Source of the DNA: a virus
IMG/VR virus record: IMGVR_UViG_3300045988_115788
Reading direction: 5' to 3' (one strand)
Length of the DNA stretch: 64,000 nt
The notes beneath the pieces were generated by a model. The model ran no database searches. It saw only the letters and a list, made by a program, of their open reading frames with translations, and was not told the DNA's origin. Below, piece by piece: positions 10,466 through 58,223 of this stretch. Positions within the stretch are counted from its first letter, which is position 1, and every line of letters begins with the position of its first letter. Both the position numbers and the translations under genes were made by a program.

Positions 10466-10990
10466 ACCTCTTGAACTAGAAACAGGCCCCATCACCTTTA
10501 ATGTTGAATTATTAAGAGTATTCGTTATAGTTGTTCCTTCATTTGGCTTAGTGATTTTCAAAAAATCTTTTTCATACAAGTACAATAAATAAGGAGATAA
10601 TTTGTTAATTAACTCCTTGATGATTTTATCTTCTACCATTTTATTTGCTTGCTCGACAGTAGAGGCAGTTATGACAATCCAACTATTCGGATACAAACAT
10701 AATGCACACGTAGCTGCGATAGCAGACAAAAAAGTTTTTGAAACACCACGCCCTGCTCTGAAAAAGAAAGAATCAGAAACTCCCATTAAATGCAAAGCTT
10801 CTCTTTGAAATGGCTTTAATCCAATACCAAGATAAAACTCTGCATAAATTTCCCAATTTCTTCTAAATAAAGTTGTCCACTCTATAGCATTTTCTATCGC
10901 TTCGTCTTCGATTTTATCTTTGCCAGTAGTAGAACGTATTCGGTCAGCTCTAAAAGCCTTGGTCAATGCTCTAGTATGAGGTCTAGCCAT
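10466..10990 (-). CDS. terL: terminase large subunit, exon 1 (Walker A)
   Basis: AGRGVSKT P-loop-like motif; fragment ends ...VSSSRG just before the Walker B encoded by exon 2. Confidence 0.75.
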
Positions 10991-13488: not shown

Positions 13489-14155
13489 TTAGTTTCTTAA
13501 ATCAGCCATACATTCTTTTGATTTTCTTTTTCTTGATTCTCTAAAACATTTTTCACCACAATAAACTTGACTATCTTTTTCTGCCTTAAAGCGTTTTCCA
13601 CACTGAGGACAAATTTTTCCTAGATTGGCAGTGTTCACTTTCAAGTTTCCGACAATTTCTCTTCCGAAAGCACCCCACAATATTTTCTTCTTTGAGTTGG
13701 GCCGCACAGTATACAAATAAGTTACTAATGTGTTAATCACATAATCAAGACTTTTTTCTGTTGATTTTAACACCTTTTCACGAATTTGTTGATACATATA
13801 CGTTTCTTCTTTATTTACTCTATCTTCTGTTGTAGAATTAAATAGATATTGATGAGTATTCCAATAATCGTAAGTCTTGATAATCTCGCTATCAGAAGAA
13901 ATAGTAAATTCTTCTTTTTGATTCATTAACATTCGATAATCAAACTTACTTATTGTTTTACAATAACTAATCCTACTAGAAGGAATAGATTTACTAATAC
14001 GATTCATAGTTGAATCATTTGGTTTTTCAACTTGGTCTTTTGATTTATCTTTTGCAAACTCAAAGAAAGCTGGTAGCTTATTCTTTGTATATGACTTCAT
14101 CAACCTTTCTATGTCTTCTGGCGGTTCTGACAACCATAATGTTTTTGCGTAATCT
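13489..14155 (-). CDS. YonO/RdRP-like single-subunit RNA polymerase, exon 3
   Basis: In-frame extension upstream of ORF 13489..14133 reads DYAKTLW, completing the family VDxxKT motif; C-terminal CPQCG...CGEKC zinc ribbon. Confidence 0.7.
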
Positions 14156-14477
14156 CATTTCTACCGTCTTTTTCAAGATACTTTAACTTTGCTCAAAGCA
14201 AACGGATTAGACTATATCTTTACTTCATACTGAAGCAACTGGCACTTCAAAAATAGGAATTTCGCCTATTTTTTACTCCTTAAAAGGATAGTCGTTGCAC
14301 CTTCCCAGCAGGGCTTGGCACAGGATTGGCATGATAATTGTTTTTGTAAAATTTTTTAAACAATTATTTTAGCTATCCCCTGTTAGCCATTACTCTAATC
14401 ATCATTTCCTATGATTCCTATTCGTAGTAATGACACCCTATATTTATAGGTTCACCAGTTTAAGTGACCGATTGTTA
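14156..14477 (-). mobile_element. group I intron 2 in RNA polymerase gene (ORF-less)
   Basis: P1 AGUGAU|uaacaaucgGUCACU with U.G at splice site; terminal G at 14156; AAGAUAUAGUCUAA core (14207-14220); 80-nt core shared with intron 1. Confidence 0.7.
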
Positions 14478-14763
14478 ATCACTTGGTTGTTCCTCATGCA
14501 GAGCCATTTAACAATATTTAATTGTTCTTCTCCAACAGTTCCGCAATTCCACACCTTAGAAATATTATTTGACACAATTCCAATATTGCCGCCATTATAA
14601 GCCGCAATCATTCCATCGTACATTGTATTATTGTTAATCTCTTGACTTTTTGCTTTCTTTAATTCATACGCTAATGGAACTATACCTTCCATATTGCGCT
14701 TGGCGACTGTTGTTAATGTTTTATCTTTTATCACTAGCAATTTATCACCGTCACAATCGACAG
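14478..14763 (-). CDS. YonO/RdRP-like RNA polymerase, exon 2 (catalytic DxDGD)
   Basis: Reads (S)VDCDGDKLLVIKD...IGIVSNNISKVW...WLCMRNNQV(I); DxDGD is the metal-binding loop of two-barrel RNAPs and RdRPs. Confidence 0.7.
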
Positions 14764-15753
14764 CCTACTAACATAGTAGGTTAGACTATATCTTAACCAT
14801 GCCCTTTCAGGTTTAGGTTCTTCGCACTTCCACTTAAAGAATTTCACTTTAAATGTACTTTACTCGGTTACTCGGTTACACCTAAAAACGGTGCTTTCCT
14901 ATCCTTTCAATAGTCGTTTGAGATTTTATTTAAACTTACTTCAAACAGTCACTCTTTATATCTTTTATTTTTCTTCACATTACATTGCAAAGTGTGTGGA
15001 TTATAGTTGTGCGCTCGTGCAAAATCAGCAAGGCAAGTGACTTCTTCTTTTTCACCAGTTACAGAATTATAAGCATATCCACTGTATTTTCTTCTTGAGC
15101 GGTCAGAATTTGCTTTTCTTGAAATCCATCGACAATTATCTGCAACATAATTTTTATTTCCATTTATTCTATCTATTGTTAAATTATCACTATAACCATT
15201 GCTTTTTGCCCAAGCAGAAAAATTACTATAATCTAACCACTCTTCACATATAACAACACCTTTTCCACCATAATATTTATATGCTACGTTATTAGGATTA
15301 TAACATCTATCTTTCATGTCGCACCAAATTTGATACAATCTAGTTTTACTTTCGCCATGTTTTAAACCATGTTCATGTTTCCGCGACTCCCAATAACATC
15401 CGCAACTCATAGTGTTTCCACTTTTTAAATGTCTACCATAAACTACAACTTCTTTTCCACAATCACATTTACATTTCCATCGACTCATTCCATTTTGAAC
15501 ATCATAAAACTCCAAAACAGTAAGCATATTAAATTTTTGTCCTTTTAAATCTAGTCTTTTTGGCATTTTTACACCCCCTTTTTTGTTTTTGTAAGTTTAA
15601 ATAACTTTCCACAGGATTGCATTTCTGTTTCCCCTGTTAGCCATTATCCTAATCATCATTTCCTATGACTCCTTAACGTGATAATGACACCCTATATTTA
15701 TAGGTTCACGAAGTTTTATATCCTCATGTTTCCAAGAGGTACAGCAAGATTTT
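14764..15753 (-). mobile_element. group I intron 1 in RNA polymerase gene, carrying an HNH ORF
   Basis: P1 ACAGU|aaaaucuuGCUGU with U.G; terminal G at 14764; AAGAUAUAGUCUAA core (14781-14794); 15631-15710 nearly identical to 14377-14456. Confidence 0.7.
14949..15566 (-). CDS. intron-encoded HNH-type (His-Me finger) homing endonuclease
   Basis: 205 aa; WKCKCDCG...SCGC zinc motif shared with the 22305 and 37440 endonucleases; TIDRINGNKNYVADNCRWIS motif; lies inside intron 1. Confidence 0.7.
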   Translation of the reverse strand: MPKRLDLKGQKFNMLTVLEFYDVQNGMSRWKCKCDCGKEVVVYGRHLKSGNTMSCGCYWESRKHEHGLKHGESKTRLYQIWCDMKDRCYNPNNVAYKYYGGKGVVICEEWLDYSNFSAWAKSNGYSDNLTIDRINGNKNYVADNCRWISRKANSDRSRRKYSGYAYNSVTGEKEEVTCLADFARAHNYNPHTLQCNVKKNKRYKE

Positions 15754-17377
15754 ACTGTAAAATGCGACTAATTAAATCTCTAGTGCTAGTATAAATACAT
15801 TGTGTATTGCCAAACCATTTCTCAGTTAATTCATTCCGAACATTCTTTCTAATAGGCCACTCTCTGTAAAGATGAGGGCTTCTTAAACAAGCTAACTCTG
15901 AACCATTTCTAAAATTTTTAGTATAAACCTCTCCATCTTCAAGAAGTCCTTTTGGATTCTTTTCGCCTAAAAACAGCCATTGACAAAAAGCAAATAAATC
16001 TGGTGACACAAATTCATATTCACCATTAACTCTAAGCCTTCCTGCTTTCGCTTGTTTGATTAGACTCTTTTTGGTTTGCTTTAAAACATCTCTGCTGTAA
16101 GGGTCGCGAAACAATTCAGGATAAATCATTACAGCTTTTTGGAACCATGATTTTTCTTCATTTTCTTCAACAGCTCCAATCAATTTCATAGTAGTTCTAA
16201 AATCTTTACCTATATTTTCAGCTTCAAATTTAGACTGTTGAGTAATTTTTTCGATTTCTTTATCACTCATATCCGTCAAAGTCTGAAGCATCTGATAATT
16301 GATTTTAGCTTTAGGAATATTTTCTTCTTCTACATTACAGCAAGAAAATTCACAGCCATATTTTTTAAAATAATATTTATACTCTTCCCAAGAATAATAA
16401 ATTTTGTTCAACTTGAACTGACTAGCCGTAAGGATATTTTGAATATTTTCTTTAACAATATCATGCTTAATACCGTATATATCCTCTACAATAGCTCTGC
16501 CGCCAGGACAATACTCTTTTATCCAAGATTGAAAATCAAAAGAAACAAGTAAACCTTTTATCCACGGAGCGCGAACCATTCTTGTAGGAGACAACATTGT
16601 TATACCACAACCATCTGTATGTGGAATCGGTGTTTCTGTCCATTCTCGCGTAATTTCATAAGTTCGATAGTCAATAAAATCAACATGTCCAAAAACGCCT
16701 GTTTCAAAATCCGAAACAACAATAGTCCTATCAATGTCAAACTCAGGCCAAAAATCAGTAGCCGAATTATTCAAAGCAAGATAAGCACTATACTTATTTA
16801 CATTCATGCCGCCACGTCGGTTTAATTCTTCGGGAGTTAAGCCGCACATCATTTTCTTTTGAATAGCTAAATAAGCCGATTCTTTAACAAAAACTGCACG
16901 TTTTGTTCGTATTTGCCCAGCAGAAGCCGTTAATAGAATATATTTTTCATTATTATGAACAAATCCATTTTTAACAATTCCTTCAAACACTTGGAAGAAA
17001 AATACGCTTACAATCATAATGTCTTCTGTCAGTTCATTGGTTTTTATTCCTAATGCTCTAGTTAAAGAAGATTCAAAAAGAGAAATCACATTTTTGTCTT
17101 TCAATTCCTCTGGATTTAATTGCCGCGGCGAAGTATCTTTTAACCGTTCGTTCAATAAATCAGTCAATCTTTGCTTTTCCTTTTTTATGACTCTATTAAC
17201 AGAAGCTTTCTTCCATTTTTCTTCTAAGCCATCTTTCTTTTTCTTCTTTTTCTTTTCGTCTAAATTCTTTTTTAATTTATACAGCTTCAGCAAACGCCTA
17301 TGAACATATCTCTCTTCGCCTTCATAAAAAGCATCTGTTCCAATTCCATAAAGGTGTATTTGCTTATCAAGCGCCAT
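15754..17377 (-). CDS. YonO/RdRP-like RNA polymerase, exon 1
   Basis: 541-aa fragment ending LRSPHLYREWP...IYTSTRDLISRILQ, matching the (K/R)xPxLHxxD...SG(G)DxDGD architecture of cellular-type RdRPs. Confidence 0.7.
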
Positions 17378-17551: not shown

Positions 17552-17824
17552 TCAACAAATTTCTCCTTGTCTCGACGGCACTTCTCCCGTATAAGCAACA
17601 AAAGATTCCCCATACATCCTTTGACTACCACAATCTGTAACATCTTCAGGGTGACATAGCATAACAATTCCAATCCCTTCAACAACATCAGCGCCCCAAG
17701 GAATGGCCCAATAACCGCTATTTTCCATTGCTTCAAGAATGTATACAGGAGTTCCTTGTCTTTCTAATAATTCTTCCCATGTCAGCATTTTAGGTTCTAC
17801 TTTATTCATCTCCAAGTTTCTCAT
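17552..17824 (-). CDS. hypothetical protein
   Basis: Track ORF 17552..17845; AGGAGGA precedes the ATG at 17824; overlaps the deaminase 3' end. Confidence 0.45.
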   Translation of the reverse strand: MRNLEMNKVEPKMLTWEELLERQGTPVYILEAMENSGYWAIPWGADVVEGIGIVMLCHPEDVTDCGSQRMYGESFVAYTGEVPSRQGEIC

Positions 17825-18257
17825 AACACCATCCTCCTGGTTCATCTAAAGTATAATATACATTCTTAATTCCCATAGACTTGATAATGCCGCCACATGC
17901 TGGACAATATCTAGCTAATCCTTGACTTCCATCTTTTTTAATTCTATAAGTAAATAAATGCGCCTTGCTGAAATCAATATTAGCGCCCCTAGCTCTAATC
18001 AAACAAGAACACTCACTATGAATTGTATTCTTTACACCAGAGCAATTTGGGTCAAATCCTCTAAGAGCATTATACTCTTTTTGTAAAGGCGAAGTTTTTT
18101 CGCCTTCATTGTAGCCAATAGAAATAATTCGTCCTTTATAGACAAGAACGCTCCCCAATTTAGCTCTTTTATTGTTACTATAATGAGAAGCGTTCCTTGC
18201 CAGCTCGAAATATTTCTGTACTCTTTTATCAGAAAGTCTCGACATTTTTTCTACCAC
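17802..18257 (-). CDS. dCMP (deoxycytidylate) deaminase
   Basis: Zinc-binding HSE...CPAC cytidine/dCMP deaminase motifs; GTG start abuts the TAA of the upstream small ORF. Confidence 0.75.
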   Translation of the reverse strand: MVEKMSRLSDKRVQKYFELARNASHYSNNKRAKLGSVLVYKGRIISIGYNEGEKTSPLQKEYNALRGFDPNCSGVKNTIHSECSCLIRARGANIDFSKAHLFTYRIKKDGSQGLARYCPACGGIIKSMGIKNVYYTLDEPGGWCYEKLGDE

Positions 18258-23010: not shown

Positions 23011-23379
23011 ATGCTAATGCGTAAGCCCGAATTTTGTCAAGAAATGAAAAAAAGAAAGGGAGTTTCTTACAAAGACGCAAGTTTTATTTATAATGTTTTT
23101 TGTGACACTCTAACTGAAGTTCTTGCAGAAGATAATGACGTAGTTCTTTTGAATGTAGGTGTTTTATACATTAAGGACAAACCTGCTTACAGTTCCCACA
23201 ATCCTAGGACACAAGAAAAAATTGAAGTGCCACCTAGAAAGTTGCTACGCTTTAGAGAAGCAACAGCCATTAAAGATTTTCTTGCAGGAAAAAGAGATAC
23301 TTACAATAGAAGAGGTCTTGGTGGCCTAAACGCAAAAAAAGACGAATATTATTTAGAAGACGAAGAAAAAGAAATTTAA
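23011..23379 (+). CDS. HU/IHF-family DNA-binding protein
   Basis: HNPRTQEKIEVPPRKLLRFREATAIKDFL matches the HU arm signature. Confidence 0.7.
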   Translation: MLMRKPEFCQEMKKRKGVSYKDASFIYNVFCDTLTEVLAEDNDVVLLNVGVLYIKDKPAYSSHNPRTQEKIEVPPRKLLRFREATAIKDFLAGKRDTYNRRGLGGLNAKKDEYYLEDEEKEI

Positions 23380-27959: not shown

Positions 27960-28304
27960 ATGAGTAAAGAGTTTGATAACATCATTGCGCAATTTTCTGA
28001 AGAAATGCTCGAAAAACCTGCAACTTGTAGAGACATCGTAGAGTGCTTGAAAGGATTGTCCGAATCTGTTGATGTGCAAGTCCGCCTTAATTTTGCTATT
28101 GAAGAACAACGTAAATTTAGCAATATTGCTATTGGCGCAATGATTGATTATTTAGGTTTTTATATTAAAGTCATTGCAGAAAAAACAAGTTATGTCTTTG
28201 ATGAAAATCGTTATTTTGATGATTTTCTCAAATTTTTTGAGAAAAGACTAAAGCCTTATAATAAAATGATTGAGGAACATCAAGATGTACTCAAGAATCT
28301 CTAA
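27960..28304 (+). CDS. hypothetical protein
   Basis: 114-aa ORF, GGAGGA SD. Confidence 0.5.
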   Translation: MSKEFDNIIAQFSEEMLEKPATCRDIVECLKGLSESVDVQVRLNFAIEEQRKFSNIAIGAMIDYLGFYIKVIAEKTSYVFDENRYFDDFLKFFEKRLKPYNKMIEEHQDVLKNL

Positions 28305-28707
28305 AAAACAATACTATCTTGAAATTGCAAAAGCTGTGGCGCAGAGGTCTACTTGTCTGAAACGACAATATGGCGCGGTTATTGTTAGCGCTAATGACGA
28401 GATAATTGCTACAGGATATAACGGAGCGCCCAGAGGATATAGTAATTGTACCGATAATGGCTTTTGCCCCAGGATGAATGTGGCGCATAACAGTGGTGAT
28501 TATGGAACTTGTTCTTCTGTTCATGCAGAACAAAACGCAATGCTTTCTGCGGCAAGAAGAGACATGATTGGTGGTACACTCTATCTTGTAGGAAGAGATA
28601 ATGGGAATTGGTTTGCGGCAGAACCTTGTCCCATTTGCAATAGAATGATTCAAAACAGCGGCATTAAGAATACTGTAACTATTAAGGAGGAATTATATTC
28701 ATGCTAA
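28285..28707 (+). CDS. dCMP deaminase (second copy)
   Basis: VHAEQNA...PCPICNRMIQNSGI zinc motifs; ATG at 28285 after GAGGAA. Confidence 0.8.
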   Translation: MYSRISKKQYYLEIAKAVAQRSTCLKRQYGAVIVSANDEIIATGYNGAPRGYSNCTDNGFCPRMNVAHNSGDYGTCSSVHAEQNAMLSAARRDMIGGTLYLVGRDNGNWFAAEPCPICNRMIQNSGIKNTVTIKEELYSC

Positions 28708-30491: not shown

Positions 30492-31253
30492 TTACCGCGC
30501 TTCTTCTTTTGTTTTAAAGTATCCTAATTCAGGATGTTCAGTAATTTGGTAGAAGCAAAGCTTTGAAATTGGATTTTTATTTTTATTTGGTCTTCTGTTT
30601 TGCATATTTTCTAATTTAGTAACAAGTCTTAGTTTTTCTCTTCGATTATCATTCCTTGCATGATAAATATGGTCAACTTCTAACTCTGGATGCTCTTCAA
30701 GTTTCTCTTCCATTATGAAACGATGCAAAAGCATAATTCTATTGGTTACCCAGCCGCTAGGAAGAACATACCAAGTGTGTTTAGAAACTCTATCATAATC
30801 TTCTGTACTAAAAAAGAAAATATTTCCGTTGGTGTCTGTTCCAATATAATATTTTCCATCAGCAGAAAGAGTAAAAGTATTTTTGCTTTTAAATTTCTTT
30901 CGCCATTGACATGAGCATAATCCAAATTTGTTCTTTTTAATATCTCGTAAAGATGCAACAAAGGTATTGCCACAATCACACTTTACTTTATATCTTTCAG
31001 TGTCAATTTGTTCGATAGTTGTAAAGGTATGATATTTTTTATTGACTTGCGACTCAATAGGATATTTGTCAATAATATATCTCGTTGGTTTCCTGTCAAT
31101 ATGAAAATCACAGATTGCCGCAAGCTGTTCTAGCTGGTTACTCTTTGCTTCTCCTGTTTTTATTTCAATATTTAAAAATTCACATAATTCTTTGTACTTT
31201 AAAGGTTCTTTAGTTTCTGATAATTCTTTTAGTTTAACAAAATTTAACTCCAT
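30492..31253 (-). CDS. HNH endonuclease fused to the regulator-family N-terminal domain
   Basis: N-terminal KEPLKYKELCEFLN...NQLEQLAAICD...KPTRYII; then CDCG...CSC zinc motif and LLHRFIM...VDHIYHARNDNRREKLRLVT..EN HNH. Confidence 0.65.
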   Translation of the reverse strand: MELNFVKLKELSETKEPLKYKELCEFLNIEIKTGEAKSNQLEQLAAICDFHIDRKPTRYIIDKYPIESQVNKKYHTFTTIEQIDTERYKVKCDCGNTFVASLRDIKKNKFGLCSCQWRKKFKSKNTFTLSADGKYYIGTDTNGNIFFFSTEDYDRVSKHTWYVLPSGWVTNRIMLLHRFIMEEKLEEHPELEVDHIYHARNDNRREKLRLVTKLENMQNRRPNKNKNPISKLCFYQITEHPELGYFKTKEEAR

Positions 31254-31345
31254 AGTATAATATCCTTTCAGATTTTAAAAATCATCTGACATACTACTAC
31301 TATATGTCAAGAATAGATATTAGAAGTATACCAGATGATTTTTTT

Positions 31346-31374
31346 ATTATACCATAAAAACCTCATTTTGTCAA
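31346..31374 (-). promoter_or_regulatory. sigma-A-type promoter with extended -10
   Basis: Minus strand TTGACA-17-TGgTATAAT upstream of 31253; leader contains an 11-bp hairpin (AAAATCATCTG/CAGATGATTTT). Confidence 0.65.
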
Positions 31375-31548
31375 GAGAAAAAATTAAAATTTTTGTTTAT
31401 TTGCAAAAAATAATAATTGTCAATTTTGAATTTCATCAATTTTGCACCAGTTTTCATTTTTTCTATATGAACCAATTTTTTCTAGTGATTGACAAGATTT
31501 CTTAAAATAATTGCATTGATTGTTAAAATAATTGTTTTTGGGATGTAA

Positions 31549-31607
31549 TTGACTTCATGTCAACAACAGTAAAGCTCATGTCAGCAATAGCAAAAAAGTG
31601 TTGACAT
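31549..31607. promoter_or_regulatory. operator-like ATGTCA(A/G)CA sites
   Basis: CATGTCAACAACAG (31556), CATGTCAGCAATAG (31577), inverted GTGTTGACAT (31598), palindrome TTGACttcatGTCAA (31549-31563). Confidence 0.35.
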
Positions 31608-31740
31608 AAAGGACTGTGAATTTAAAAAAATAAAAAATGAAGTATTGTTCTTTTTTTAAATGGAAACGAAAAATAGAGTAGGGAGTGGTAAAGTTAATGA
31701 GATTGTGCGAATAATGGTGAAGTTAAAGAGTTGTTGTTAA

Positions 31741-31790
31741 TAACTAGGAAGTTATGTGAATAACTAAGAAGTTATGTAAATAACTAGAAA
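31741..31790. repeat. 2.5 tandem 20-bp units, each an internal palindrome
   Basis: TAACTAGGAAGTTATGTGAA / TAACTAAGAAGTTATGTAAA / TAACTAGAAA; each unit holds ATAACTnnnnAGTTAT. Confidence 0.7.
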
Positions 31791-32081
31791 AAATTTTTGA
31801 AAAATATTTGTGTAATTGTCTAGCACACTACGAAAAACGTTTGTTTTTGAAAGGCATTTGCTATAACCAACCCCCTATCATTAACAAATAAGGAACTGAC
31901 ACAAAAAGTGCATGATAACAACTGTTAGACGGTAAACTGGAAAACGTGAAGTGTTATCTATAACTGCCCCCTTGTTATTGAAAAATATTTAAAATTTTGG
32001 AACTTTGTGGTCTGGTGAAAAGGGCAAAAAAGAAATAGAACATTTGTTCTAAAATTGTATTACGTGATTAATACAATTTTG

Positions 32082-32281
32082 AAACAACAAAAAATTTCAT
32101 AACAACAAATATAACATAATATCAAACATATTCTATAACATATTTCACAACACCAAACATAACAACAAACCTAACATATTTTTATAGCAACCTTCACAAC
32201 AACAACTATCCAATCATTTCACTATCACCAGACCCCCAAAAAATCATCTATCTCTAATCATTATAATCAAATCAAACTTTC
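32082..32281. repeat. almost G-free A/C-rich tract with ~60-nt degenerate duplication
   Basis: Only two G (32177, 32231) in 200 nt of plus strand; CATAACAACAAA repeats at 32098 and 32158. Confidence 0.8.
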
Positions 32282-32288
32282 GCCTAAA

Positions 32289-32383
32289 ATCGCCTATACA
32301 AGCTTTTAGCACCTTTGGGTATGTATAGATATAGGTAAGACCTTCCTTGCTTCTCAGCGCGTTCTAGGTGCCTTATAGGCGAT
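32289..32383. other. compound hairpin at the strand-switch point
   Basis: ATCGCCTATA (32289-98) pairs TATAGGCGAT (32374-83); GCACCT (32309-14) pairs AGGTGC (32366-71). Confidence 0.6.
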
Positions 32384-32600
32384 ATGATGTTTAGTTGTGC
32401 ATTATATACATATTCTTTGTTATTATCTTTATAATCTTTGTTGATATTGACGTTGTTCGTCAATATATACAAGTGCGGCCTTGTGTTGTTGTGCATGTTG
32501 ACTATATCATTATGTTATCATTATACTTATAGTATTGTGATTGGTGCGGCCCTTGGTTAATGTGTTGTGTTTTGTTGTTGTATTTTGTGCAAGTTGGCTA

Positions 32601-32628
32601 TTGCTTTTTGCCGCCGTTCTGATATAAT
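32601..32628 (+). promoter_or_regulatory. promoter of the GC-rich island operon (cassette copy C)
   Basis: TTGCTT-16-TGaTATAAT, preceded by ATTTTGTGCAA (32582-32592). Confidence 0.6.
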
Positions 32629-32702
32629 GGGTACTGTCGAAAGGGCAAGGGCGAAAGCTTTTGAGCGAGTAGGCGGGCACCTTGACAATTAAATAGAACG
32701 CA

Positions 32703-32786
32703 GCAAGGCTCTATCAAAGACTATGTAATTAAGGCTGTCAGATAGTATAGATGCAGGACTATTGGATAGCTGAGATAGAGCCTTGC
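32703..32786 (+). ncRNA. long hairpin in the ~240-nt leader of the island operon
   Basis: Perfect 13-bp closing stem GCAAGGCTCTATC/GATAGAGCCTTGC enclosing 58 nt; lies between promoter and first SD. Confidence 0.45.
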
Positions 32787-32868
32787 AAAATGGGGAAAGG
32801 TTTAATAGAGTATATTAAGTAATGTAATATATTGTATTAAGTCTTTATATCAAAGGAGGATATATATT

Positions 32869-33018
32869 GTGATAAAAAGCATCATTAAGTCTTTCCGCGC
32901 TGATAATAAAAAGCTGGCGGCGGAACACAAAAGGACGATGCAGGAAGCGGAGGCGGCATTGCGGCAGATGAAGGCTGCAATGGATAAAATCGGAACAAGA
33001 AAGGAGCGTTTGTTATGA
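32869..33018 (+). CDS. small coiled-coil protein (49 aa)
   Basis: GTG 8 nt after AAAGGAGGATAT; stop overlaps the next ATG (ATGA). Confidence 0.5.
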   Translation: MIKSIIKSFRADNKKLAAEHKRTMQEAEAALRQMKAAMDKIGTRKERLL

Positions 33019-33221
33019 AAAAGTATAAGTATACAAAAAAACACGCGTAAGAATGTGTAGAAGCCTACGCCCATTTGACGGGGTGGTTTGACGAAAGCAT
33101 AACTCAACGAGAAATGTTTGAGATGCTACGGTACAGGATGCAGTTTGGAGAAGCCGAAAGCCGAGTGATTGTTGCGGCGCTGGTTATGGCAGGAGCAAAA
33201 TTCAAAACAAGCGCAGAGTGA
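33015..33221 (+). pseudogene. small ORF interrupted by an in-frame TAA at codon 12
   Basis: Coupled ATG start, MKKYKYTKKHA-TAA-ECVEAYAHLTGWFDES...KFKTSAE; 56 open codons after the stop lack their own SD or start. Confidence 0.45.
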
Positions 33222-33292
33222 CGGGGGAGCAATCCCCTGGTAATGCGGCTAAGAGTGGTCACAAGCCCACCGCAAAGAAAGGATGGTTTTTT

Positions 33293-33631
33293 ATGACAAA
33301 CACAAAAGAAGAGCTGCGTCGCATGATGCAAGGTATCCGCCATGATTTGGAGCTTGCCTTTGAAGGTGAGCTTAAAAATGAGGACGGGGAGCCAGTAGAC
33401 CTCTGGGAATATCTGGCGGACGGCCTAGCGCTAGATTACCGCGTAGGCCCTGATAAAAGCCCTACTGCGTGCCGCGTGTGGCTTGTGTTGGGTGGGCCTA
33501 ATATCTGGGTGGATACCGAAACGGATTCTATTCACGGCGCTTGGGGGAGCGACAGAGAAGAAATTTATATCAACTCTGAGCTGTCCGATGCTATTTTAGA
33601 TTCTATGACCTTCGATTGGGATTGCTATTGA
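33293..33631 (+). CDS. hypothetical acidic protein
   Basis: Track ORF 33218..33631; first ATG at 33293 (MTNTKEEL...). Confidence 0.55.
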   Translation: MTNTKEELRRMMQGIRHDLELAFEGELKNEDGEPVDLWEYLADGLALDYRVGPDKSPTACRVWLVLGGPNIWVDTETDSIHGAWGSDREEIYINSELSDAILDSMTFDWDCY

Positions 33632-33647
33632 AAGGAGGATATCTACC

Positions 33648-33794
33648 ATGAAAAAATATCTCGCAATCCTGTTGCTGTCTGCCTTGTGTTTTGTCGCAGG
33701 GATTGCGGCAACTGTAGCGGAGGCAATGCCGGAACAGTCAGCAGTTGTTAGCTATTTCAACGGATTGATTGTAAAGGAATATTTCAATCCGTAA
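33648..33794 (+). CDS. small secreted/membrane peptide (48 aa)
   Basis: AAAGGAGGATAT SD; MKKYLAILLLSALCFVAGIAATVAEA signal-like N-terminus. Confidence 0.5.
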   Translation: MKKYLAILLLSALCFVAGIAATVAEAMPEQSAVVSYFNGLIVKEYFNP

Positions 33795-33891
33795 ATATTC
33801 AGCGCCTTTAGTCGTTGGGCTTAAAACGACTAACCAGAGCGCAACATGGCCGCGCATTGAAAAGAGCTATGAGAAAGGAGGATATTTAACA

Positions 33892-34113
33892 ATGGCAAAT
33901 GTCAAGAAGTCTGCAACGTTGGAAGTTGAGGATGTGTTTACTCAACAGGTAAACGCCAACTACAAACGTTGCAAGGAAGCACGGGAGAAGGCCGCAAAAC
34001 AGAGGCAGGAAGAGCTGAAGCGCATGTATCGCAATAGCAAACGTGTCGCAGTGTGGGGCATTGTGGGTTGTATAGCGGTATTGATTGCCGCCTATGCTAT
34101 GTGGTTCATTTAA
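33892..34113 (+). CDS. tail-anchored small membrane protein
   Basis: AAAGGAGGATAT SD; basic coiled N-terminus and C-terminal VAVWGIVGCIAVLIAAYAMWFI helix. Confidence 0.55.
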   Translation: MANVKKSATLEVEDVFTQQVNANYKRCKEAREKAAKQRQEELKRMYRNSKRVAVWGIVGCIAVLIAAYAMWFI

Positions 34114-34126
34114 GGAGGCACATACT

Positions 34127-34525
34127 ATGATAACAAGCATCAATCTAAAGGCACTGAGTGGGGCTATCCTTGCAGCATTGAGCGCCTATATGCCAACGTC
34201 CGTCCCCTGCGTGGTGGACAGGATAGAGCAGGACGGCGGGGATAGAATTGCAGTGGTGGAGATTGCGGACAAGGACACAGGGGACATTCTTTTCTGTGAT
34301 ATTGATAGCGATACATTGGTTGACGATGAACATCTGACCATGCAGCGCTTGTCAGGGGAAGTTGTAGACTGTGAAGCATACGGCGGCAACTGGTATACTG
34401 TGTCTGTAGCAGTAGGGGACGAAATACATTCTGTAGTAGAAGGTATTAGCTATCCTGTGGGCGCTATCGTGTGGGCCTATATGTATAAAGGAAATATGCA
34501 AACTATTGCAGTGCAACACCAGTAA
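34127..34525 (+). CDS. hypothetical acidic protein
   Basis: TAAGGAGG SD before the ATG at 34127 (track ORF starts 34085). Confidence 0.55.
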   Translation: MITSINLKALSGAILAALSAYMPTSVPCVVDRIEQDGGDRIAVVEIADKDTGDILFCDIDSDTLVDDEHLTMQRLSGEVVDCEAYGGNWYTVSVAVGDEIHSVVEGISYPVGAIVWAYMYKGNMQTIAVQHQ

Positions 34526-34540
34526 GGAGGATATTTTGTA

Positions 34541-34981
34541 ATGGGTACTATTAACTACGGAAGCAACTGCACCAATGAGGGCCTTCTCAATATCGGCCTT
34601 AACTTGAACCGGTTTAATTCGCCTATAACAATTATGCGCCGCGCAAATATGATGCGGGAAATCGTTGACGATTATAACGGTACTTGGTTCAAAGTAAACG
34701 TTGAACCAGGATACTACGAGGGCGCGTGGGTCTCCGTTGAATGGGACGAGGATATACTATTCTATAACGGGCCTTGGTCTTTCGAAGAGGTGCGCTCAGA
34801 AATAACGTACTTGAATACGATGCTTCAGCTTTTGGTTAATGCTGGGTGCGTGGAATATTGGCCAGGGTGGTGCACAGGATATAGTACGGCGGCAGAAACG
34901 AGAAAGGCAATTATAGCCAACGTCGAGCGCTTATGGACGTACTACAAAGAAACATATCAGGAGGATGAAGGGGATGATTAA
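34541..34981 (+). CDS. hypothetical protein, acidic C-terminus
   Basis: TAAGGAGGATAT SD; 146 aa ending QEDEGDD. Confidence 0.55.
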   Translation: MGTINYGSNCTNEGLLNIGLNLNRFNSPITIMRRANMMREIVDDYNGTWFKVNVEPGYYEGAWVSVEWDEDILFYNGPWSFEEVRSEITYLNTMLQLLVNAGCVEYWPGWCTGYSTAAETRKAIIANVERLWTYYKETYQEDEGDD

Positions 34982-35138
34982 CAAGAAAGACTTGGAAATT
35001 ATCCTATCTATGGATAATGAACTTGAACGTTTGCGAATGTTTTTCAACAAACGACGTGACAGCCAAGCAGACAAGAGGAAATGGACAGCAGAAAGCAAGC
35101 TGTTCATTAACAAGGTTGAATCAAAGAAAGGAGTATAA
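34974..35138 (+). CDS. small hypothetical protein (54 aa)
   Basis: ATG overlaps the upstream gene end; MINKKDLEIILSMDNELERL... Confidence 0.4.
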   Translation: MINKKDLEIILSMDNELERLRMFFNKRRDSQADKRKWTAESKLFINKVESKKGV

Positions 35139-35143
35139 TTGTT

Positions 35144-35497
35144 ATGGAAAAGTATCTGGTGAACACTTACGGCAATCATTGGGTGGAATGTGACAGCGCA
35201 GAAAGTGCCGCGCAGGAAGTAATCGAAAATGTAGAGGATTGCTATTGGGACGATTTACTTGATGAGGCATGGGGAGAAGTCGAAGTATGCGGTTATACAT
35301 ACTGTGCTTCTCGTGCGTTGTCTCTGATTGATGAGGTAGCTTATAGGTGTGGAAAAAACGATTGGTTAGACGGGGAATATCGGGATATAGTATACAGTCT
35401 CGAAAGAATGATGGACGGCGACGAAGAGGAATATTTCGGGGTAACTGTTCGTTATGAAGAGGTATCCGACAACGAAGAGGAGGAAGAAGATGAATGA
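35144..35497 (+). CDS. highly acidic small protein
   Basis: AAAGGAG SD; 117 aa ending EEVSDNEEEEEDE. Confidence 0.55.
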   Translation: MEKYLVNTYGNHWVECDSAESAAQEVIENVEDCYWDDLLDEAWGEVEVCGYTYCASRALSLIDEVAYRCGKNDWLDGEYRDIVYSLERMMDGDEEEYFGVTVRYEEVSDNEEEEEDE

Positions 35498-35636
35498 TAT
35501 AATTCATTGGAAACTATATGCAGAGTGGTTAGACAACGGTAACTTTTGCGCTGATTTCTTTATGAGTTATGACGAGTTATGGGACAGCTTGTTCAATCCT
35601 GAGCTTGAGCTGCTTACAATAGTTGAGCGCAAGTAA
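35490..35636 (+). CDS. small hypothetical protein (48 aa)
   Basis: ATG at 35490 (MNDIIHW...) overlapping the upstream stop; track ORF starts 35454. Confidence 0.4.
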   Translation: MNDIIHWKLYAEWLDNGNFCADFFMSYDELWDSLFNPELELLTIVERK

Positions 35637-37439: not shown

Positions 37440-38120
37440 ATGATTGTTATTTTAAAAGATTTAACAGGAAAGCGCTTCGGACGTTTATTTGTTGTTGGCC
37501 CTGCTCCCAGAAAGAATAATCGAACTGCTTGGCGTTGTAGATGTAATTGTGGAAACTATACAGATGTTTTAACTCGCAATTTAACAACAGGAAACACAAA
37601 GTCTTGTCGTTGCCTTGAAAAAGATGTTTTTAAACCTAATTTATATTCTTTAGGAGATAAAGTTAGCATAGGTTATTGTGCAAATGGGAGAATTTTTCTT
37701 TTTGATACCGAAGACTATGACAGAATTAAAAAATATAAATGGCGCTCAAATAAAAAAGGATATATTTCAACTCAAATCAACGGAAGAACAACAAGTTTAC
37801 ATCGTTTTATTTTGAACGTGGACAAAGAAAAAGAAGTTGACCATATCGAAGGAAAACCCTGGGACAACCGAAAAGAAAAACTACGAATCGTAACTCATCA
37901 AGAGAATATGATGAATAGAAAAAAGTCTGCTAGAAATTCAACTGGTGTTACAGGGGTTAGCATTGATAAAGACACAGGAAAATTTCGTTCTGAAATTTAT
38001 TATAATGGGAAGAAGTATTCGTTAGGTCGCTTCAAAACTTTGGAAGAAGCAAAACGAGTAAGAATACAAGCAGAAGAAGAATTTTTTAAAGACTACGCTA
38101 GGAAGGAAGAGTTTAGATGA
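37440..38120 (+). CDS. free-standing HNH-AP2 homing endonuclease (paralog of 22305..22994)
   Basis: WRCRCNCG...SCRC, LHRFIL...VDHIEGKPWDNRKEKLRIVTHQEN, AP2-like TGVTGVSIDKDTGKFRSEIYY. Confidence 0.8.
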   Translation: MIVILKDLTGKRFGRLFVVGPAPRKNNRTAWRCRCNCGNYTDVLTRNLTTGNTKSCRCLEKDVFKPNLYSLGDKVSIGYCANGRIFLFDTEDYDRIKKYKWRSNKKGYISTQINGRTTSLHRFILNVDKEKEVDHIEGKPWDNRKEKLRIVTHQENMMNRKKSARNSTGVTGVSIDKDTGKFRSEIYYNGKKYSLGRFKTLEEAKRVRIQAEEEFFKDYARKEEFR

Positions 38121-40326: not shown

Positions 40327-40445
40327 ACAGAGAAATTGCAATCTTGAGGTGTCGTTACACCTGTATGTTGTGGAGGGTTACACAAACTTGAGTAGCTTTG
40401 GCGAAAGAGAATCCAATGAAACAGTAAGTTGATTTTTAATTAACA
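40327..40445 (+). ncRNA. omega-RNA-like right end of the TnpB remnant
   Basis: Structured tail; CACAAACTTGAGTAGCTTTGGC is homologous to 58910-58936 downstream of the other remnant. Confidence 0.4.
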
Positions 40446-43280: not shown

Positions 43281-44399
43281 ATGGAATACAGCTATAGGTT
43301 TCGTATCTATCCCAGTATCGCACAAGCGCAACAGATACGCCGGACATTTGGATGCTGTCGCTTTGTCTGGAATCACTATCTTTCGCAGCGAATAGAAGCA
43401 TACAGGGAAACAGGAAAGTCTCTTACACGATTCATGCAAGACAAAAATCTAACGTCCCTGAAGAAACAGGAGGAAACCATTTGGCTACGAGAAGTTGATG
43501 CCACGGCCTTGCAGTCCTCTCTACGGGATTTGGATATAGCTTATCGAAACTTCTTTCGGCGCGTCAAAAAGAGGGAGAAGCCCGGTTATCCAAAATTCAA
43601 AAGCAAGAAAAATCATCGGCAAAGCTATAAGAGCAAATGCGTTGGCAACAACATTAAAGTATTAGAAGGGGCTGTACAACTCCCTAAGCTAGGTAAGGTA
43701 AAATGCCAGGTCAGCAAGCATGTAGAGGGACGTATTCTGTCCGCAACCGTTAGCCAGACCCCAAGCGGAAAATACTTTGTAGCCCTGTGCTGTACAGATG
43801 TTGATATGGAGCCGCTACCATCTACAGGGGCAGCGGTCGGCATCGACATGGGGTTAAAAGCACTTGCAATTACCTCCGATGGTGTGGAGTATCCGAACCA
43901 TAAGCATCTATCCAAGAGCCAGAAGGAACTTACAAAACTCCAACGGAAACTCTCCCGAAAAACAAAGGGGAGTAACCGCTGGGATAAGGCAAAGCAAAAG
44001 GTTGCACGGCTATATGAACGGATTACAAACCAAAGAAAGGACACGTTACACAAGCTTTCCACAAAGCTCATTCGTGAAAATGATATTATTTGCATAGAAA
44101 ATTTGGCTGTCAAGAATATGGTCAAGAATCATAATTTAGCAAGAGCTATTGCAGATGCTTCATGGGGCGAGTTTCGTAGACAACTAACCTATAAAGCAAA
44201 ATGGTATGGTCGAAAGTTAGTCGTTATAGACAGATTCTATCCTTCCAGTCAGATTTGCTCTGCTTGCGGTGCAAAGTGGCCTGGAACAAAGGATTTGTCC
44301 GTTCGGGAGTGGACTTGCCCAAAGTGCAGCACGGTACATGATAGAGATGTTAATGCGGCAAAGAATATTCTAGCAGAAGGACTTCGCATGTTGGCATAA
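43281..44399 (+). CDS. tnpB: TnpB RNA-guided endonuclease (intact)
   Basis: MEYSYRFRIYPSIAQAQ N-terminus; RuvC D (VGIDMG), E (ICIENL), Zn ribbon CSACG...CPKCS, RuvC D (HDRDVNAAKNI). Confidence 0.9.
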   Translation: MEYSYRFRIYPSIAQAQQIRRTFGCCRFVWNHYLSQRIEAYRETGKSLTRFMQDKNLTSLKKQEETIWLREVDATALQSSLRDLDIAYRNFFRRVKKREKPGYPKFKSKKNHRQSYKSKCVGNNIKVLEGAVQLPKLGKVKCQVSKHVEGRILSATVSQTPSGKYFVALCCTDVDMEPLPSTGAAVGIDMGLKALAITSDGVEYPNHKHLSKSQKELTKLQRKLSRKTKGSNRWDKAKQKVARLYERITNQRKDTLHKLSTKLIRENDIICIENLAVKNMVKNHNLARAIADASWGEFRRQLTYKAKWYGRKLVVIDRFYPSSQICSACGAKWPGTKDLSVREWTCPKCSTVHDRDVNAAKNILAEGLRMLA

Positions 44400-58196: not shown

Positions 58197-58223
58197 TTAA
58201 AAATAAGTTATAAAAAGTTGTAA

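What the first reader, a model, noticed from the sequence alone, without database searches (positions are those of the whole stretch)
32082..32600. 200-nt almost G-free tract mirrored by a C-poor tract: a decayed large inverted repeat centred on a hairpin at the strand switch
Between 32082 and 32281 the plus strand has only two G (32177, 32231) in 200 nt. It is built of ACAACAA-type words with a ~60-nt degenerate duplication (CATAACAACAAA at 32098 and 32158). To the right, 32387-32600 is C-poor and built of TTGTTGTG words with a ~71-nt duplication (GTGCGGCC at 32473 and 32544). The reverse complement of the left arm shares words with the right arm (TTGTTGTTGTG, ATTATGTTAT), so the two form an old inverted repeat with arms of ~200-250 bp. 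At the centre is a compound hairpin: 32289-32298 pairs with 32374-32383, and 32309-32314 with 32366-32371. Gene orientation flips from minus to plus exactly here. Read outward from the centre, both strands are G+T-rich and C-poor. Candidate roles are a bidirectional replication origin, a former genome end or packaging region, or divergent G/U-rich leader RNAs. Such strict exclusion of one base over 200 nt is not explained by coding or by any feature I can name.
Basis: seen in the sequence. Interest (0 to 1): 0.65.

Follow-up and report, generated by a model that had tools for sequence, protein, structure and literature searches.

The report
G-free flank of phage packaging site
The almost guanine-free 200-base tract is real and under selection, and it is most likely one of two arms flanking the DNA-packaging start (pac) site of an SPbeta-like gut phage, not half of a decayed inverted repeat around a hairpin.

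Summary
The G-free tract is confirmed: 2 G in 32082-32281, the minimum for the whole window (P about 7e-16). Its proposed mirror partner (32387-32600) is only mildly C-poor, shares no more words with it than composition predicts, and is a conserved promoter region. The proposed central hairpin is weak.

The real partner lies to the left. A C-poor arm (31612-31819) and the G-free arm (32082-32278) flank a highly conserved 262-bp core (31820-32081). The same layout, C-free arm, core, G-free arm, occurs without any sequence similarity at the syntenic place in Enterocloster phage PMBT24. A weaker version occurs in Bacillus phage SPbeta. In both, published virion-DNA end mapping puts the pac terminus exactly at the junction of core and G-poor arm, which corresponds to 32081|32082 here.

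The arms evolve 4-5 times faster than the core yet never gain the excluded base. In this lineage the arm stays 197-198 nt long in seven variants. It carries TAAC words in a 12-bp register.

Best reading: this is the flank of the pac site on the side that is not packaged first, and it acts as a platform for a DNA-binding oligomer. Why one base is excluded from one strand is unexplained. A replication origin cannot be ruled out.

The parts
31612..31819 (.). Left arm. It is C-poor on the + strand (7 C in 208 nt), which makes it G-poor when read 5'->3' away from the core. It contains three 20-bp tandem units (31735-31787) built from ATAAC/GTTAT half-sites, and an AT-only stretch at 31620-31661.
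   Evidence: It stays C-poor (6-9 C) in relatives L005, L007 and L008, though its length varies from 190 to 228 nt.
31820..32081 (.). Conserved 262-bp core of mixed composition. It holds two direct CTATAAC-N3-4-CCCCCT motifs (about 31861-31876 and 31958-31972). It also holds a 19-bp-arm palindrome (32044-32062 / 32069-32087) whose perfect 12-bp inner part is AAAATTGTATTA-N6-TAATACAATTTT.
   Evidence: It is 83-93% identical among relatives, against 59-85% for the arms. The palindrome is pair I7. No ORF of 40 aa or more and no Rfam match.
32081..32082 (.). Predicted position of the initiating pac cut, with packaging predicted to run leftward toward the late genes. This is inferred by analogy and has not been measured in this phage.
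   Evidence: The SPbeta opening point at 64781|64782 and PMBT24 record position 1 both lie at the junction of core and G-poor arm.
32082..32278 (+). Right arm, which is the reported tract. It is G-free on the + strand (2 G in 197 nt; A 48%, C 25%, T 25%). The proximal half is a degenerate 12-bp array of TAAC-containing units (TAAC at 32100, 32112, 32136, 32160, 32172). The middle is hypervariable. The distal ~45 nt are conserved (AAAAAATCATCTATCTCTAATCATTAT...).
   Evidence: The length is 197-198 nt in 7 variants, with 0-5 G each.
32279..32386 (.). Function unknown. It is moderately conserved and one relative carries an 11-nt deletion.
32387..32634 (+). It is a highly conserved T/G-rich control region for the rightward early operon. 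It contains a 15-bp-arm palindrome (32438-32452 / 32458-32472). It also contains one promoter-like site, TTGACT-18-TATACT (32498-32527), and a second with an extended -10, TTGCTT (32601-32606) then 16 nt then TGaTATAAT (32620-32628).
   Evidence: It is 93-95% identical in the relatives that align without a gap. The first promoter comes and the palindrome. The second promoter is my own reading.
31346..31374 (-). Leftward consensus promoter (TTGACA-17-TATAAT with TG). It lies outside the left arm and points away from the module.
   Evidence: 12 of 12 matches.

Best explanation
The tract is the arm next to the early operon in a three-part packaging-initiation (pac) module of an SPbeta-like siphovirus. 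The module is a C-poor arm (31612-31819), a conserved 262-bp core (31820-32081) and a G-free arm (32082-32278).

By analogy with SPbeta and PMBT24, terminase recognises the conserved core and makes the first cut of a headful packaging series at the junction of core and G-free arm (predicted 32081|32082). It then packages leftward through the core and left arm toward the late genes. The G-free arm would therefore sit on the side that is not packaged first, between the cut and the early promoters.

I infer that the arm is a fixed-length platform of 197 +/- 1 bp. A DNA-binding oligomer, either small terminase or an accessory protein such as the HU-like protein, would assemble along oriented 12-bp TAAC units.

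The strand-specific exclusion of G has several consequences. Neither strand can form G:C-stabilised hairpins. The arm cannot carry a TTGACA -35 box, an outward start codon or Shine-Dalgarno sequence, or any G/C-containing palindromic restriction or methylation site. This would keep the assembly zone free of competing structures and signals.

Shown here: the composition, the selection, the length constraint, the periodic words, the synteny, and the position of the termini in relatives. Inferred: that this phage cuts at this site, which protein binds, and why G is excluded.
For: 1. The window is a phage of the SPbeta / Enterocloster-phage type. Its DnaE-like polymerase is 46% identical to PMBT24's and 37% to SPbeta yorL. 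TerL, portal, YonO-like RNA polymerase, helicase, primase and RecA-like genes are syntenic.

2. PMBT24 has a 215-nt C-free tract (99746-99960), a 316-bp core (1-316) and a 218-nt G-free tract (317-534). The module sits at the same syntenic position and in the same orientation relative to the early and late genes, with no sequence similarity. Relatives L023 and L026 have it too.

3. The PMBT24 paper reports a significant PhageTerm peak and states that the pac site was set as the start of the genome map (PMC11035940). Position 1 is the last base of the core. One arm's base-free run ends 2 nt before that junction, at the very end of the record.

4. The SPbeta yonP-yonR intergenic region has a weaker version: C-poor 64180-64530, core 64531-64781, then a 57-nt G-free run followed by G-poor sequence. 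Kohm et al. (bioRxiv 10.1101/2021.11.22.469490, supplement 11) give the first ~250 packaged bases with the start point at position 251. I map this to 64781|64782, the same junction. They report packaging toward the late genes.

5. There is selection for base exclusion.
- PMBT24 against L023: the right arm has 67 substitutions in 215 nt and none involves G. The left arm has 33 and none involves C. The core has only 23 in 316.
- Window lineage: variable columns in the arm are CT 39, AC 19, AT 11 and AG 7. In the adjacent promoter region AG is the commonest class.

6. The arm is 197, 198, 197, 197, 197, 197 and 197 nt long in seven variants. These fall into at least four haplotype groups that are only 59-85% identical and need several indels to align.

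7. There are oriented iteron-like words.
- ATAAC/GTTAT occurs 15 times in 700 bp here. The window mean is 2.35 +/- 1.94 and the next-best peak is 8.
- TAAC sits in a 12-nt register (arm positions 19, 31, 43, 55, 67, 79, 91) across variants, and 12 is the best period in 6 of 7.
- In PMBT24 the word CTATC is enriched in both arms in mirrored orientation.

8. An HU-like gene is present (23011-23379, similar to SPbeta yonN).
Against: - No terminus data exist for this phage. The assignment rests on analogy of architecture and synteny, without sequence homology between the cores.
- SPbeta's arms are much weaker (5-10% of the excluded base), so strict exclusion is not needed for pac function.
- The module is about 14 kb from the YonO-like RNA polymerase gene (and about 21 kb from the terminase genes) here, and 9 kb from the YonO-like gene in PMBT24. 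In SPbeta it adjoins yonP/yonO.
- A protein that reads double-stranded DNA should not care which strand carries G. The platform idea therefore does not really explain the strand-specific exclusion, which extends to every linker position in PMBT24.
- Arm length is not fixed in the PMBT24 group (215 against 227 nt; 218 against 184).
- Base composition other than the excluded base differs between lineages (A-rich here, C-rich in PMBT24), so no common mechanical property is evident.
- No small terminase was identified by profile search.
- Geobacillus phage GR1 shares only the replication module, yet has a G-poor non-coding tract facing its early genes. This hints that the arm could travel with replication genes rather than packaging genes.
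- The orientation of the PMBT24 record relative to the packaging direction is my assumption.
Confidence: 0.58

Rival explanations
1. Replication origin, either instead of pac or overlapping it. The conserved core binds an initiator. The arms are landing zones that stay unstructured once unwound. For forks leaving the core, the strand a DnaB-type helicase tracks 5'->3' is the G-free strand on both sides. Neither melted strand can fold through G:C pairs.
For: - The mirror polarity (G-free when read 5'->3' away from the core on both sides) fits a process that leaves the core in both directions.
- Strand-specific exclusion points to a single-strand-level process.
- The module has features typical of origins. 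These are iteron-like ATAAC words including three 20-bp tandem units, AT-only islands and a palindrome.
- The 20-bp units contain TTATTCACA, TTATTTACA and TTATTAACA on the minus strand. These match the relaxed DnaA-box consensus TTATNCACA with 0-1 mismatch.
- The module lies immediately upstream of the replication-gene operon, at a point of divergent transcription.
- GR1 shares only the replication genes and has a similar G-poor tract.
Against: - No origin has been mapped in any SPbeta-like phage (PMC8270828).
- The only experimental data on the module in relatives are packaging termini.
- DnaA-box-like words are not enriched in the G-free arm here. The near-consensus boxes just after the cut in PMBT24 and SPbeta are not conserved in L023 or L026.
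- No initiator gene was recognised next to the module. The neighbouring 336-aa protein has only 2 close-relative protein clusters and no family or structure match.
- GC skew follows the direction of transcription and gives no independent signal.
Confidence: 0.22
2. RNA-level element. Transcripts leaving the core through either arm would be G-free, C-containing, unstructured and untranslatable, since every start codon and the Shine-Dalgarno sequence need G. That is the signature of a Rho-loading (rut) site. The arms would then be outward-facing Rho-dependent terminators or insulators, or unstructured non-coding leaders.
For: - The arm is 25% C and 1% G here, and 48% C and 0% G in PMBT24.
- It has no ORF.
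- TACAAT at 32072-32077, inside the palindrome, would place a transcription start near 32083-32085, at the start of the tract. This is my reading. The weak promoter-like hit is the mirror-image one on the minus strand.
Against: - The strong identifiable promoters lie outside the arms and point away from them (31374->31346 leftward; 32498 and 32601 rightward). The arms are therefore probably not in the main transcripts.
- Outward-facing rut sites would not shield the core.
- An exact length of 197 nt and a 12-bp register of TAAC words are not expected of rut sites.
- An RNA role cannot explain DNA termini at the arm edge in relatives.
- There is no Rfam match.
Confidence: 0.1
3. One reading: a decayed large inverted repeat with arms 32082-32281 and 32387-32600, centred on a compound hairpin at 32289-32383.
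For: - A few shared words exist (repeat finder pairs I5, I8, I9 and I12).
- The outer 10-bp stem is perfect in the window.
- One compensatory C-G to T-A change is seen in a relative.
Against: - Word sharing and local alignment score are within chance for the composition (z 0.7-1.7).
- The right region is only mildly C-poor and is conserved as a promoter region.
- Hairpin energy has z about -1. The covariation term is unfavourable and the 3' arm is deleted in L007.
- Distant relatives show that the conserved mirror is C-poor arm, core, G-free arm, with the partner on the left.
Confidence: 0.03
4. No function. The tract is a slippage-prone low-complexity stretch whose G-poverty reflects propagation of G-less words or a local mutational bias, for example deamination of a strand that is often single-stranded.
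For: - The arms are hypervariable with many indels and repeated words.
- The complementary strand is T-rich in this lineage, as C-to-T decay would predict.
Against: - 67 point substitutions occur between PMBT24 and L023 in one arm, and none creates or removes a G.
- The boundaries with flanks of normal composition are sharp.
- In PMBT24 the C-free strand is G-rich rather than T-rich, so deamination decay does not fit.
- Exact length is kept despite indels.
- The architecture recurs in lineages that share no sequence.
Confidence: 0.05

Closest known systems
pac ('genome opening') region of Bacillus phage SPbeta and relatives, in the yonP-yonR intergenic region (Fink & Zahler 1982; Kohm et al., bioRxiv 10.1101/2021.11.22.469490)
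   Same: - It occupies a divergent non-coding region between the late genes and the early/replication cluster in a phage that shares TerL, YonO, polymerase and other genes.
- The order is C-poor arm, a core of about 250 bp, then a G-poor arm.
- The mapped first packaged base lies at the junction of core and G-poor arm.
   Different: - SPbeta's arms are far weaker (5-10% of the excluded base, and only 57 nt strictly G-free).
- The cores share no sequence similarity.
- In SPbeta the module adjoins yonP/yonO. Here an ~11-kb block of nucleotide-metabolism genes lies in between.
- The compositional mirror is not mentioned in the passages and supplement of those papers that I searched.
pac site of Enterocloster phage PMBT24 (PMC11035940)
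   Same: - It has the same three-part module at the same syntenic position.
- Base exclusion is strict (0 G in 218 nt, 0 C in 215 nt).
- The arms are hypervariable and the core is conserved.
- The PhageTerm terminus lies at the arm edge.
   Different: - There is no sequence similarity.
- The arms are C-rich (up to 48% C) rather than A-rich.
- The enriched word is CTATC rather than TAAC.
- Arm length is not fixed within that group.
- The left arm here is only C-poor (7 C), not C-free.
SPP1 pac (pacL-pacC-pacR) and P1 pac (hexamer clusters flanking the cut). From my own knowledge; not tested here.
   Same: These are three-part packaging signals. Repeated protein-binding words on both sides of a cleavage region are bound by small terminase, and packaging proceeds in one direction.
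   Different: - Those sites span about 160-270 bp, lie in or near the terminase genes, and are defined by specific boxes.
- Strand-specific exclusion of a base, 200-bp arms and a cut at the arm edge are not described for them.
- The SPbeta review reports no similarity between the SPbeta pac region and the SPP1 pac site (PMC8270828).
Iteron-type or DnaA-type replication origins with oppositely oriented arrays of weak sites, such as E. coli oriC. From my own knowledge.
   Same: They have oriented short words in two oppositely directed arrays around a centre, AT-rich islands, and a position next to replication genes.
   Different: - The period here is 12 bp, not about 11 bp.
- No initiator was identified.
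- No origin activity is known.
- Base exclusion is not a described property of origins.
Rho utilisation (rut) sites
   Same: They are C-containing, G-poor, unstructured and untranslated when read as RNA.
   Different: - This tract is 200 nt long rather than about 80.
- It has an exact length and a 12-nt register.
- It is probably not within the major transcripts.
- In relatives it is associated with a DNA terminus.

Membership tests
Headful (pac-type) packaging initiation site | A reproducible DNA terminus, seen as a one-sided read-start peak with decaying coverage, in virion DNA at the site | not testable with these tools
   No read data exist for this phage. The feature is met in relatives at the equivalent junction: PMBT24 (PMC11035940) and SPbeta-like phages.
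Headful (pac-type) packaging initiation site | The phage encodes a headful-type packaging machinery homologous to that of phages with a mapped pac | tested here: met
   TerL (8837-10156 plus 10460-10990) is 41-44% identical to PMBT24 TerL and 27-35% to SPbeta yonF. The portal and a yonG-like gene are also shared.
Headful (pac-type) packaging initiation site | Binding and cleavage by small and large terminase | not testable with these tools
   No small terminase was recognised by Pfam. Biochemistry is required.
SPbeta-type pac module (proposed here: C-poor arm, conserved core, G-poor arm) | A mirror of strand composition around a core of about 250-320 bp, with G excluded on the strand read 5'->3' away from the core | tested here: met
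   The window has 7 C in 208 nt, a 262-bp core and 2 G in 197 nt. This is the top-scoring C-poor-then-G-poor pair in the window.
SPbeta-type pac module (proposed here: C-poor arm, conserved core, G-poor arm) | Same syntenic position and orientation: the G-poor arm faces the early/replication operon, the C-poor arm faces the late side, and transcription diverges from the module | tested here: met
SPbeta-type pac module (proposed here: C-poor arm, conserved core, G-poor arm) | Core conserved and arms hypervariable, but with the base exclusion maintained | tested here: met
SPbeta-type pac module (proposed here: C-poor arm, conserved core, G-poor arm) | Sequence homology of the core between lineages | tested here: not met
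   Local alignments of the window, PMBT24 and SPbeta cores score within shuffles (z -0.5 to 1.0). Membership therefore rests on architecture and synteny only.
Replication origin (iteron/DUE type) | Repeated initiator-binding words together with an AT-rich unwinding element | tested here: inconclusive
   ATAAC words are strongly enriched, and there are three 20-bp tandem units, DnaA-box-like 9-mers and AT-only islands. The same features also fit a pac site.
Replication origin (iteron/DUE type) | A demonstrated start of replication, or an adjacent initiator gene | tested here: inconclusive
   The neighbouring 336-aa protein has no family or structure match and only 2 close-relative protein clusters. 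Origin activity cannot be tested here.
Rho-dependent terminator (rut site) | C-rich, G-poor, unstructured, untranslated RNA lying inside a transcript | tested here: inconclusive
   The composition criterion is met. Transcription across the tract is doubtful, because the identifiable promoters lie outside it and point away.
Known RNA families (Rfam 15) | A covariance-model match | tested here: not met
   Nothing credible in 31200-33400 other than Twister-P5 at 33212-33270.

The most novel reading that the evidence does not exclude
SPbeta-like phages, from Bacillus to gut Lachnospiraceae, carry a previously undescribed kind of cis-element. It is defined by strict strand-specific exclusion of one base in two mirror-oriented arms of about 200 bp around the packaging start, not by sequence. 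The exclusion would exist because the arms are handled as single strands. After the cut, or after origin melting, the strand read 5'->3' away from the core is G-free and its complement is C-free. Both are then structure-free landing pads for helicase, recombinase or the packaging motor. On this reading the module couples packaging initiation with replication or recombination restart.
Probability: 0.2. Interest if true: 0.85.

Novelty: new variant of a known kind. Interest (0 to 1): 0.68.

Why it matters
Pac sites of large Firmicute phages are poorly defined. For SPbeta only the opening point is known, and none is known for its gut relatives.

A signature based on composition (C-poor arm, core, G-free arm) would let pac sites and the packaging direction be predicted from sequence alone in metagenomic SPbeta-like phages. 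That is useful for predicting transduction and for designing packaging signals for phage-based delivery in gut Firmicutes.

Purifying selection that forbids one base on one strand over 200 bp, while the sequence itself evolves 4-5 times faster than its surroundings, is also an unusual kind of constraint. Explaining it could reveal a single-strand step in packaging initiation or replication that current terminase models do not include.

Tried and rejected
- **DNA similarity to known phages.** Searching the 1.6-kb gap against 50,697 phage records in near and distant modes found nothing.
- **Rfam.** Gathering and permissive thresholds gave nothing in the module.
- **Sequence-level inverted repeat.** Rejected for both possible partners.
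- **Central hairpin as a conserved structure.** Rejected.
- **Other skewed tracts.** 15132-15282 and 58080-58295 are mostly coding, purine-rich sequence and are unrelated.
- **Contig ends of metagenomic relatives as evidence of termini.** Rejected. Contig 133080 breaks inside the 31277-31343 palindrome with a flipped loop. Others start at boundaries between conserved and variable sequence, or at strain SNPs within the core. These are assembly breaks.
- **Homology between cores of the three lineages.** None found.
- **DnaA-box arrays as the cause of G-exclusion.** TTATCCACA is itself G-free, but such boxes are not enriched in the window's G-free arm, and the near-consensus boxes just after the cut in PMBT24 and SPbeta are not conserved in their relatives.
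- **Chi-site protection.** The B. subtilis Chi sequence AGCGG is not visible in the SPbeta arm sequence printed. This was checked by eye only.
- **Cytosine-deamination decay.** It does not fit PMBT24, whose C-free strand is G-rich.
- **Neighbouring 336-aa gene as a clue.** It is an orphan.
- **Literature.** Searches for base-free or strand-asymmetric pac flanks found no description.
Full report

The window is a 35%-GC phage genome segment. This is the lowest G count of any 200-nt window in the 64 kb and includes the longest G-free run (105 nt). At the window's G frequency (0.189) the probability of 2 or fewer G in 200 nt is 7e-16.

The tract lies in a 1.6-kb gap (31254-32868) with no ORF of 40 aa or more in its left two-thirds and no credible Rfam match.

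**2.

- The region 32387-32600 has 23 C in 214 nt, which is only mildly low (P = 0.009 for one window).
- The reverse complement of the G-free tract shares no more 6-8-mers or local alignment score with it than dinucleotide shuffles do (z 0.7-1.7).
- In relatives the region is 93-95% conserved. It contains an operator-like palindrome and two rightward promoter-like sites, the second with an extended -10 (TTGCTT, 16 nt, TGaTATAAT at 32601-32628). These lead into a structured leader and the first early ORF at 32869.
- The 'compound hairpin' folds no better than shuffles (z about -1). Its covariation term is unfavourable, and relative L007 has lost its 3' arm.

**3. The real partner lies to the left.**

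The + strand of 31612-31819 has only 7 C in 208 nt (P 1e-9). An unbiased scan of the window for a C-poor 200-nt window followed 100-450 nt later by a G-poor one peaks at 31615 plus about 32090. The score is 1.64 against 0.00 +/- 0.19.

Between the two arms lies a 262-bp core (31820-32081). It is the best-conserved part of the gap among relatives. It contains two CTATAAC...CCCCCT motifs and a palindrome whose right arm runs into the first bases of the G-free tract. There is no sequence-level inverted repeat here either. The mirror is purely one of composition: read 5'->3' away from the core, both strands avoid G.

**4. What the genome is.**

PHROG and Pfam hits identify portal, DnaB-like helicase, RecJ-like exonuclease, ligase, a 1294-aa DnaE-like polymerase and HNH endonucleases. 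tblastn finds the polymerase at 46% identity in Enterocloster phages (PMBT24, CB457P and others) and at 37% in SPbeta yorL.

The gene order matches PMBT24 and, for the packaging and YonO genes, SPbeta. Late genes lie on one strand on the left, followed by a nucleotide-metabolism block, then the non-coding gap, then the early/replication operon.

**5. The same module occurs in distant relatives, at mapped packaging termini.**

PMBT24 (OQ326496.2) has a run of 215 nt without C at the end of the record (99746-99960). It is followed by a 316-bp core (1-316) and a run of 218 nt without G (317-534). The early operon lies beyond the first arm, so the arrangement is the same as in the window. No sequence is shared.

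The PMBT24 paper reports a significant PhageTerm peak on one strand, classifies the phage as pac-type, and states that the pac site was chosen as the start of the genome map (PMC11035940). Position 1 is the last base of the core, and the base-free run of the adjoining arm starts 2 nt beyond it.

In SPbeta the pac or 'genome opening point' lies between yonP and yonR. That intergenic region shows a weaker version of the mirror: C-poor and G-rich at 64180-64530, mixed at 64531-64781, then 57 nt without G followed by G-poor sequence. Supplement 11 of Kohm et al. prints the first ~250 packaged bases and says the start point is position 251, with packaging running counter-clockwise. I located that fragment at 64531-64781, so the cut is 64781|64782. 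This is again the junction of core and G-poor arm, and packaging runs through the core and C-poor arm toward the late genes.

The contexts of the cut are CGAAG|ACATAATTT in SPbeta and ATATG|AGATACATT in PMBT24.

**6. Evidence of selection.**

*PMBT24 group.* Between PMBT24 and its relative L023, the G-free arm differs at 67 of 215 aligned positions (CT 44, AC 15, AT 8) plus indels, and no difference involves G. The C-free arm differs at 33 positions and none involves C. The core differs at only 23 of 316.

*Window lineage.* I collected seven variants from IMG/VR and one metagenome scan. Their arms are only 59-85% identical between haplotype groups, against about 93% in the adjacent promoter region, and several indels are needed to align them. 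Each arm nevertheless has 0-5 G. The distance between the flanking conserved anchors is 197, 198, 197, 197, 197, 197 and 197 nt. Variable columns are dominated by C/T and A/C. A/G is rare, although A makes up 48% of the strand.

So both the exclusion of G and, in this lineage, the exact length are maintained while the sequence turns over quickly. A deamination-type mutational bias does not fit, because the C-free strand in PMBT24 is G-rich rather than T-rich.

**7. Internal anatomy of the arm.**

- The 5-mer ATAAC/GTTAT occurs 15 times in 700 bp around the module. The window mean is 2.35 +/- 1.94 and the next-best peak is 8. It forms the three 20-bp tandem units of the left arm and part of both core motifs. 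In the right arm all copies share one orientation.
- TAAC words sit in a 12-nt register (arm positions 19, 31, 43, 55, 67, 79, 91, which correspond to 32100 + 12k) across variants whose intervening sequence differs. Twelve is the best period in six of seven variants, and TRF reports period-12 and period-24 arrays.
- The distal ~45 nt of the arm are conserved.
- In PMBT24 a different word, CTATC, is enriched in both arms in mirrored orientation.

This looks like a platform for an oligomeric DNA-binding protein.

**8. Interpretation.**

The best-supported statement is that the tract is one arm of the pac module of this phage lineage. It sits on the side of the initiating cut that is not packaged first and separates the cut from the early promoters by a fixed distance.

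The mechanism I commit to, at moderate confidence, has two steps. Terminase, probably with a DNA-bending accessory (an HU-like gene is present), recognises the conserved core. An oligomer then assembles along the 12-bp units of the arm.

The base exclusion removes every G:C-based self-structure, every canonical -35 box, every outward start codon and every G/C-containing palindromic restriction or methylation site from the assembly zone. I flag that this does not truly explain why exclusion is strand-specific and extends to every position. That fact points to a step in which the arms are single-stranded (notebook).

**9. Rivals.**

- A replication origin, alone or overlapping pac, fits the polarity, the iteron-like words, the DnaA-box-like 9-mers in the 20-bp units, the AT islands and the position next to the replication operon. 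Geobacillus phage GR1 shares only the replication genes and has a comparable G-poor tract. However, no origin has been mapped in this family, and the only experimental anchor is a packaging terminus.
- A Rho-loading or unstructured-RNA role fits the composition. It does not fit the promoter layout, the exact length, the periodic words or the DNA termini.
- Neutral low complexity is contradicted by sections 6 and 7.

**10. Novelty.**

Within the searchable literature I found no description of base-free or strand-asymmetric flanks at pac sites. In the passages and supplement I searched, the two papers that map these termini do not mention the composition.

I classify the finding as a new variant of a known kind: a headful pac region with a previously unnoticed constraint defined by composition. 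I did not test terminus position, protein binding, transcription or origin activity, and none of these can be tested with the present tools.

Noticed in passing
33212-33270 (+): A Twister-P5 ribozyme (62 bits, E 1.7e-10) overlaps the start of the mechanical ORF 33218-33631. blastn shows further copies of this ~95-nt element at other positions in relatives (for example L005 7667-7759 and L003 3960-4058), which suggests a mobile or duplicated element.
   Followed up: partly
40367-40427 and 58898-58970 (+); 58350-58841; 43281-44399: There are two RAGATH-18 RNAs. The second lies about 55 nt downstream of an ORF that looks to me like a TnpB C-terminus (58350-58841; judged by eye from the DNA, not tested). 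A full IS200/IS605-type transposase (phrog_506) is at 43281-44399. The RNA may belong to the transposon's guide or 3'-end RNA.
   Followed up: no
13489-17377 (-): The YonO-like single-chain RNA polymerase gene is in three pieces (15752-17377, 14444-14740, 13489-14133, all matching SPbeta yonO). An ORF at 14949-15566 lies between them. By eye its N-terminus resembles the HNH/AP2 endonuclease at 37440-38120; I ran no profile or comparison on it. This looks like an intron or intein insertion.
   Followed up: partly
8837-10990 (-): The large terminase is split into 10460-10990 (N-terminal part) and 8837-10156 (C-terminal part), with a ~300-nt gap. Both parts match the single TerL genes of PMBT24 and SPbeta.
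   Followed up: partly
30492-31253 (-): This HNH endonuclease gene is absent from the otherwise collinear relatives L003 and L008, so it is a mobile insertion next to the module.
   Followed up: partly
31277-31343: A palindrome with 27-bp arms is flanked by A5 and T6 runs and resembles a bidirectional terminator. It sits at the 5' end of the leftward transcript predicted from the consensus promoter 31374->31346. A 119.7-kb IMG/VR contig breaks inside it with the loop flipped, which is an assembly artefact.
   Followed up: partly
31735-31787: Three 20-bp tandem units alternate ATAAC and GTTAT half-sites. On the minus strand each contains a DnaA-box-like 9-mer (TTATTAACA, TTATTCACA, TTATTTACA). 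This could be an operator or an iteron array.
   Followed up: partly
32635-32868 (+): This is the likely 5' leader of the early operon, with a perfect 13-bp stem (32703-32715 / 32774-32786). The first ~60 nt are conserved in all relatives. In L007 the rest is replaced by a protein-coding gene with its own ribosome-binding site.
   Followed up: no
33000-35600: An island of about 47% GC in a 35% GC genome. It encodes small acidic proteins of unknown function at the start of the early operon.
   Followed up: no
17802-18257 (-) and 28270-28707 (+): Two separate genes with the dCMP/cytidine-deaminase fold occur in one phage genome.
   Followed up: no
L036/L037 (Geobacillus phage GR1, OK896991.1) 78845-78990: A non-coding G-poor tract (4 G in 150 nt) faces the early cluster in a phage that shares only the replication module with the window. 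A second G-poor spot at 38583 lies next to an actin-like segregation gene.
   Followed up: partly
L015-L022, L027-L032 (IMG/VR contigs of about 47-220 kb): These contigs, many of them 148-220 kb long, encode a distant homologue of the dNMP kinase (25-39% identity). None has base-exclusion arms within 10 kb of that gene.
   Followed up: no
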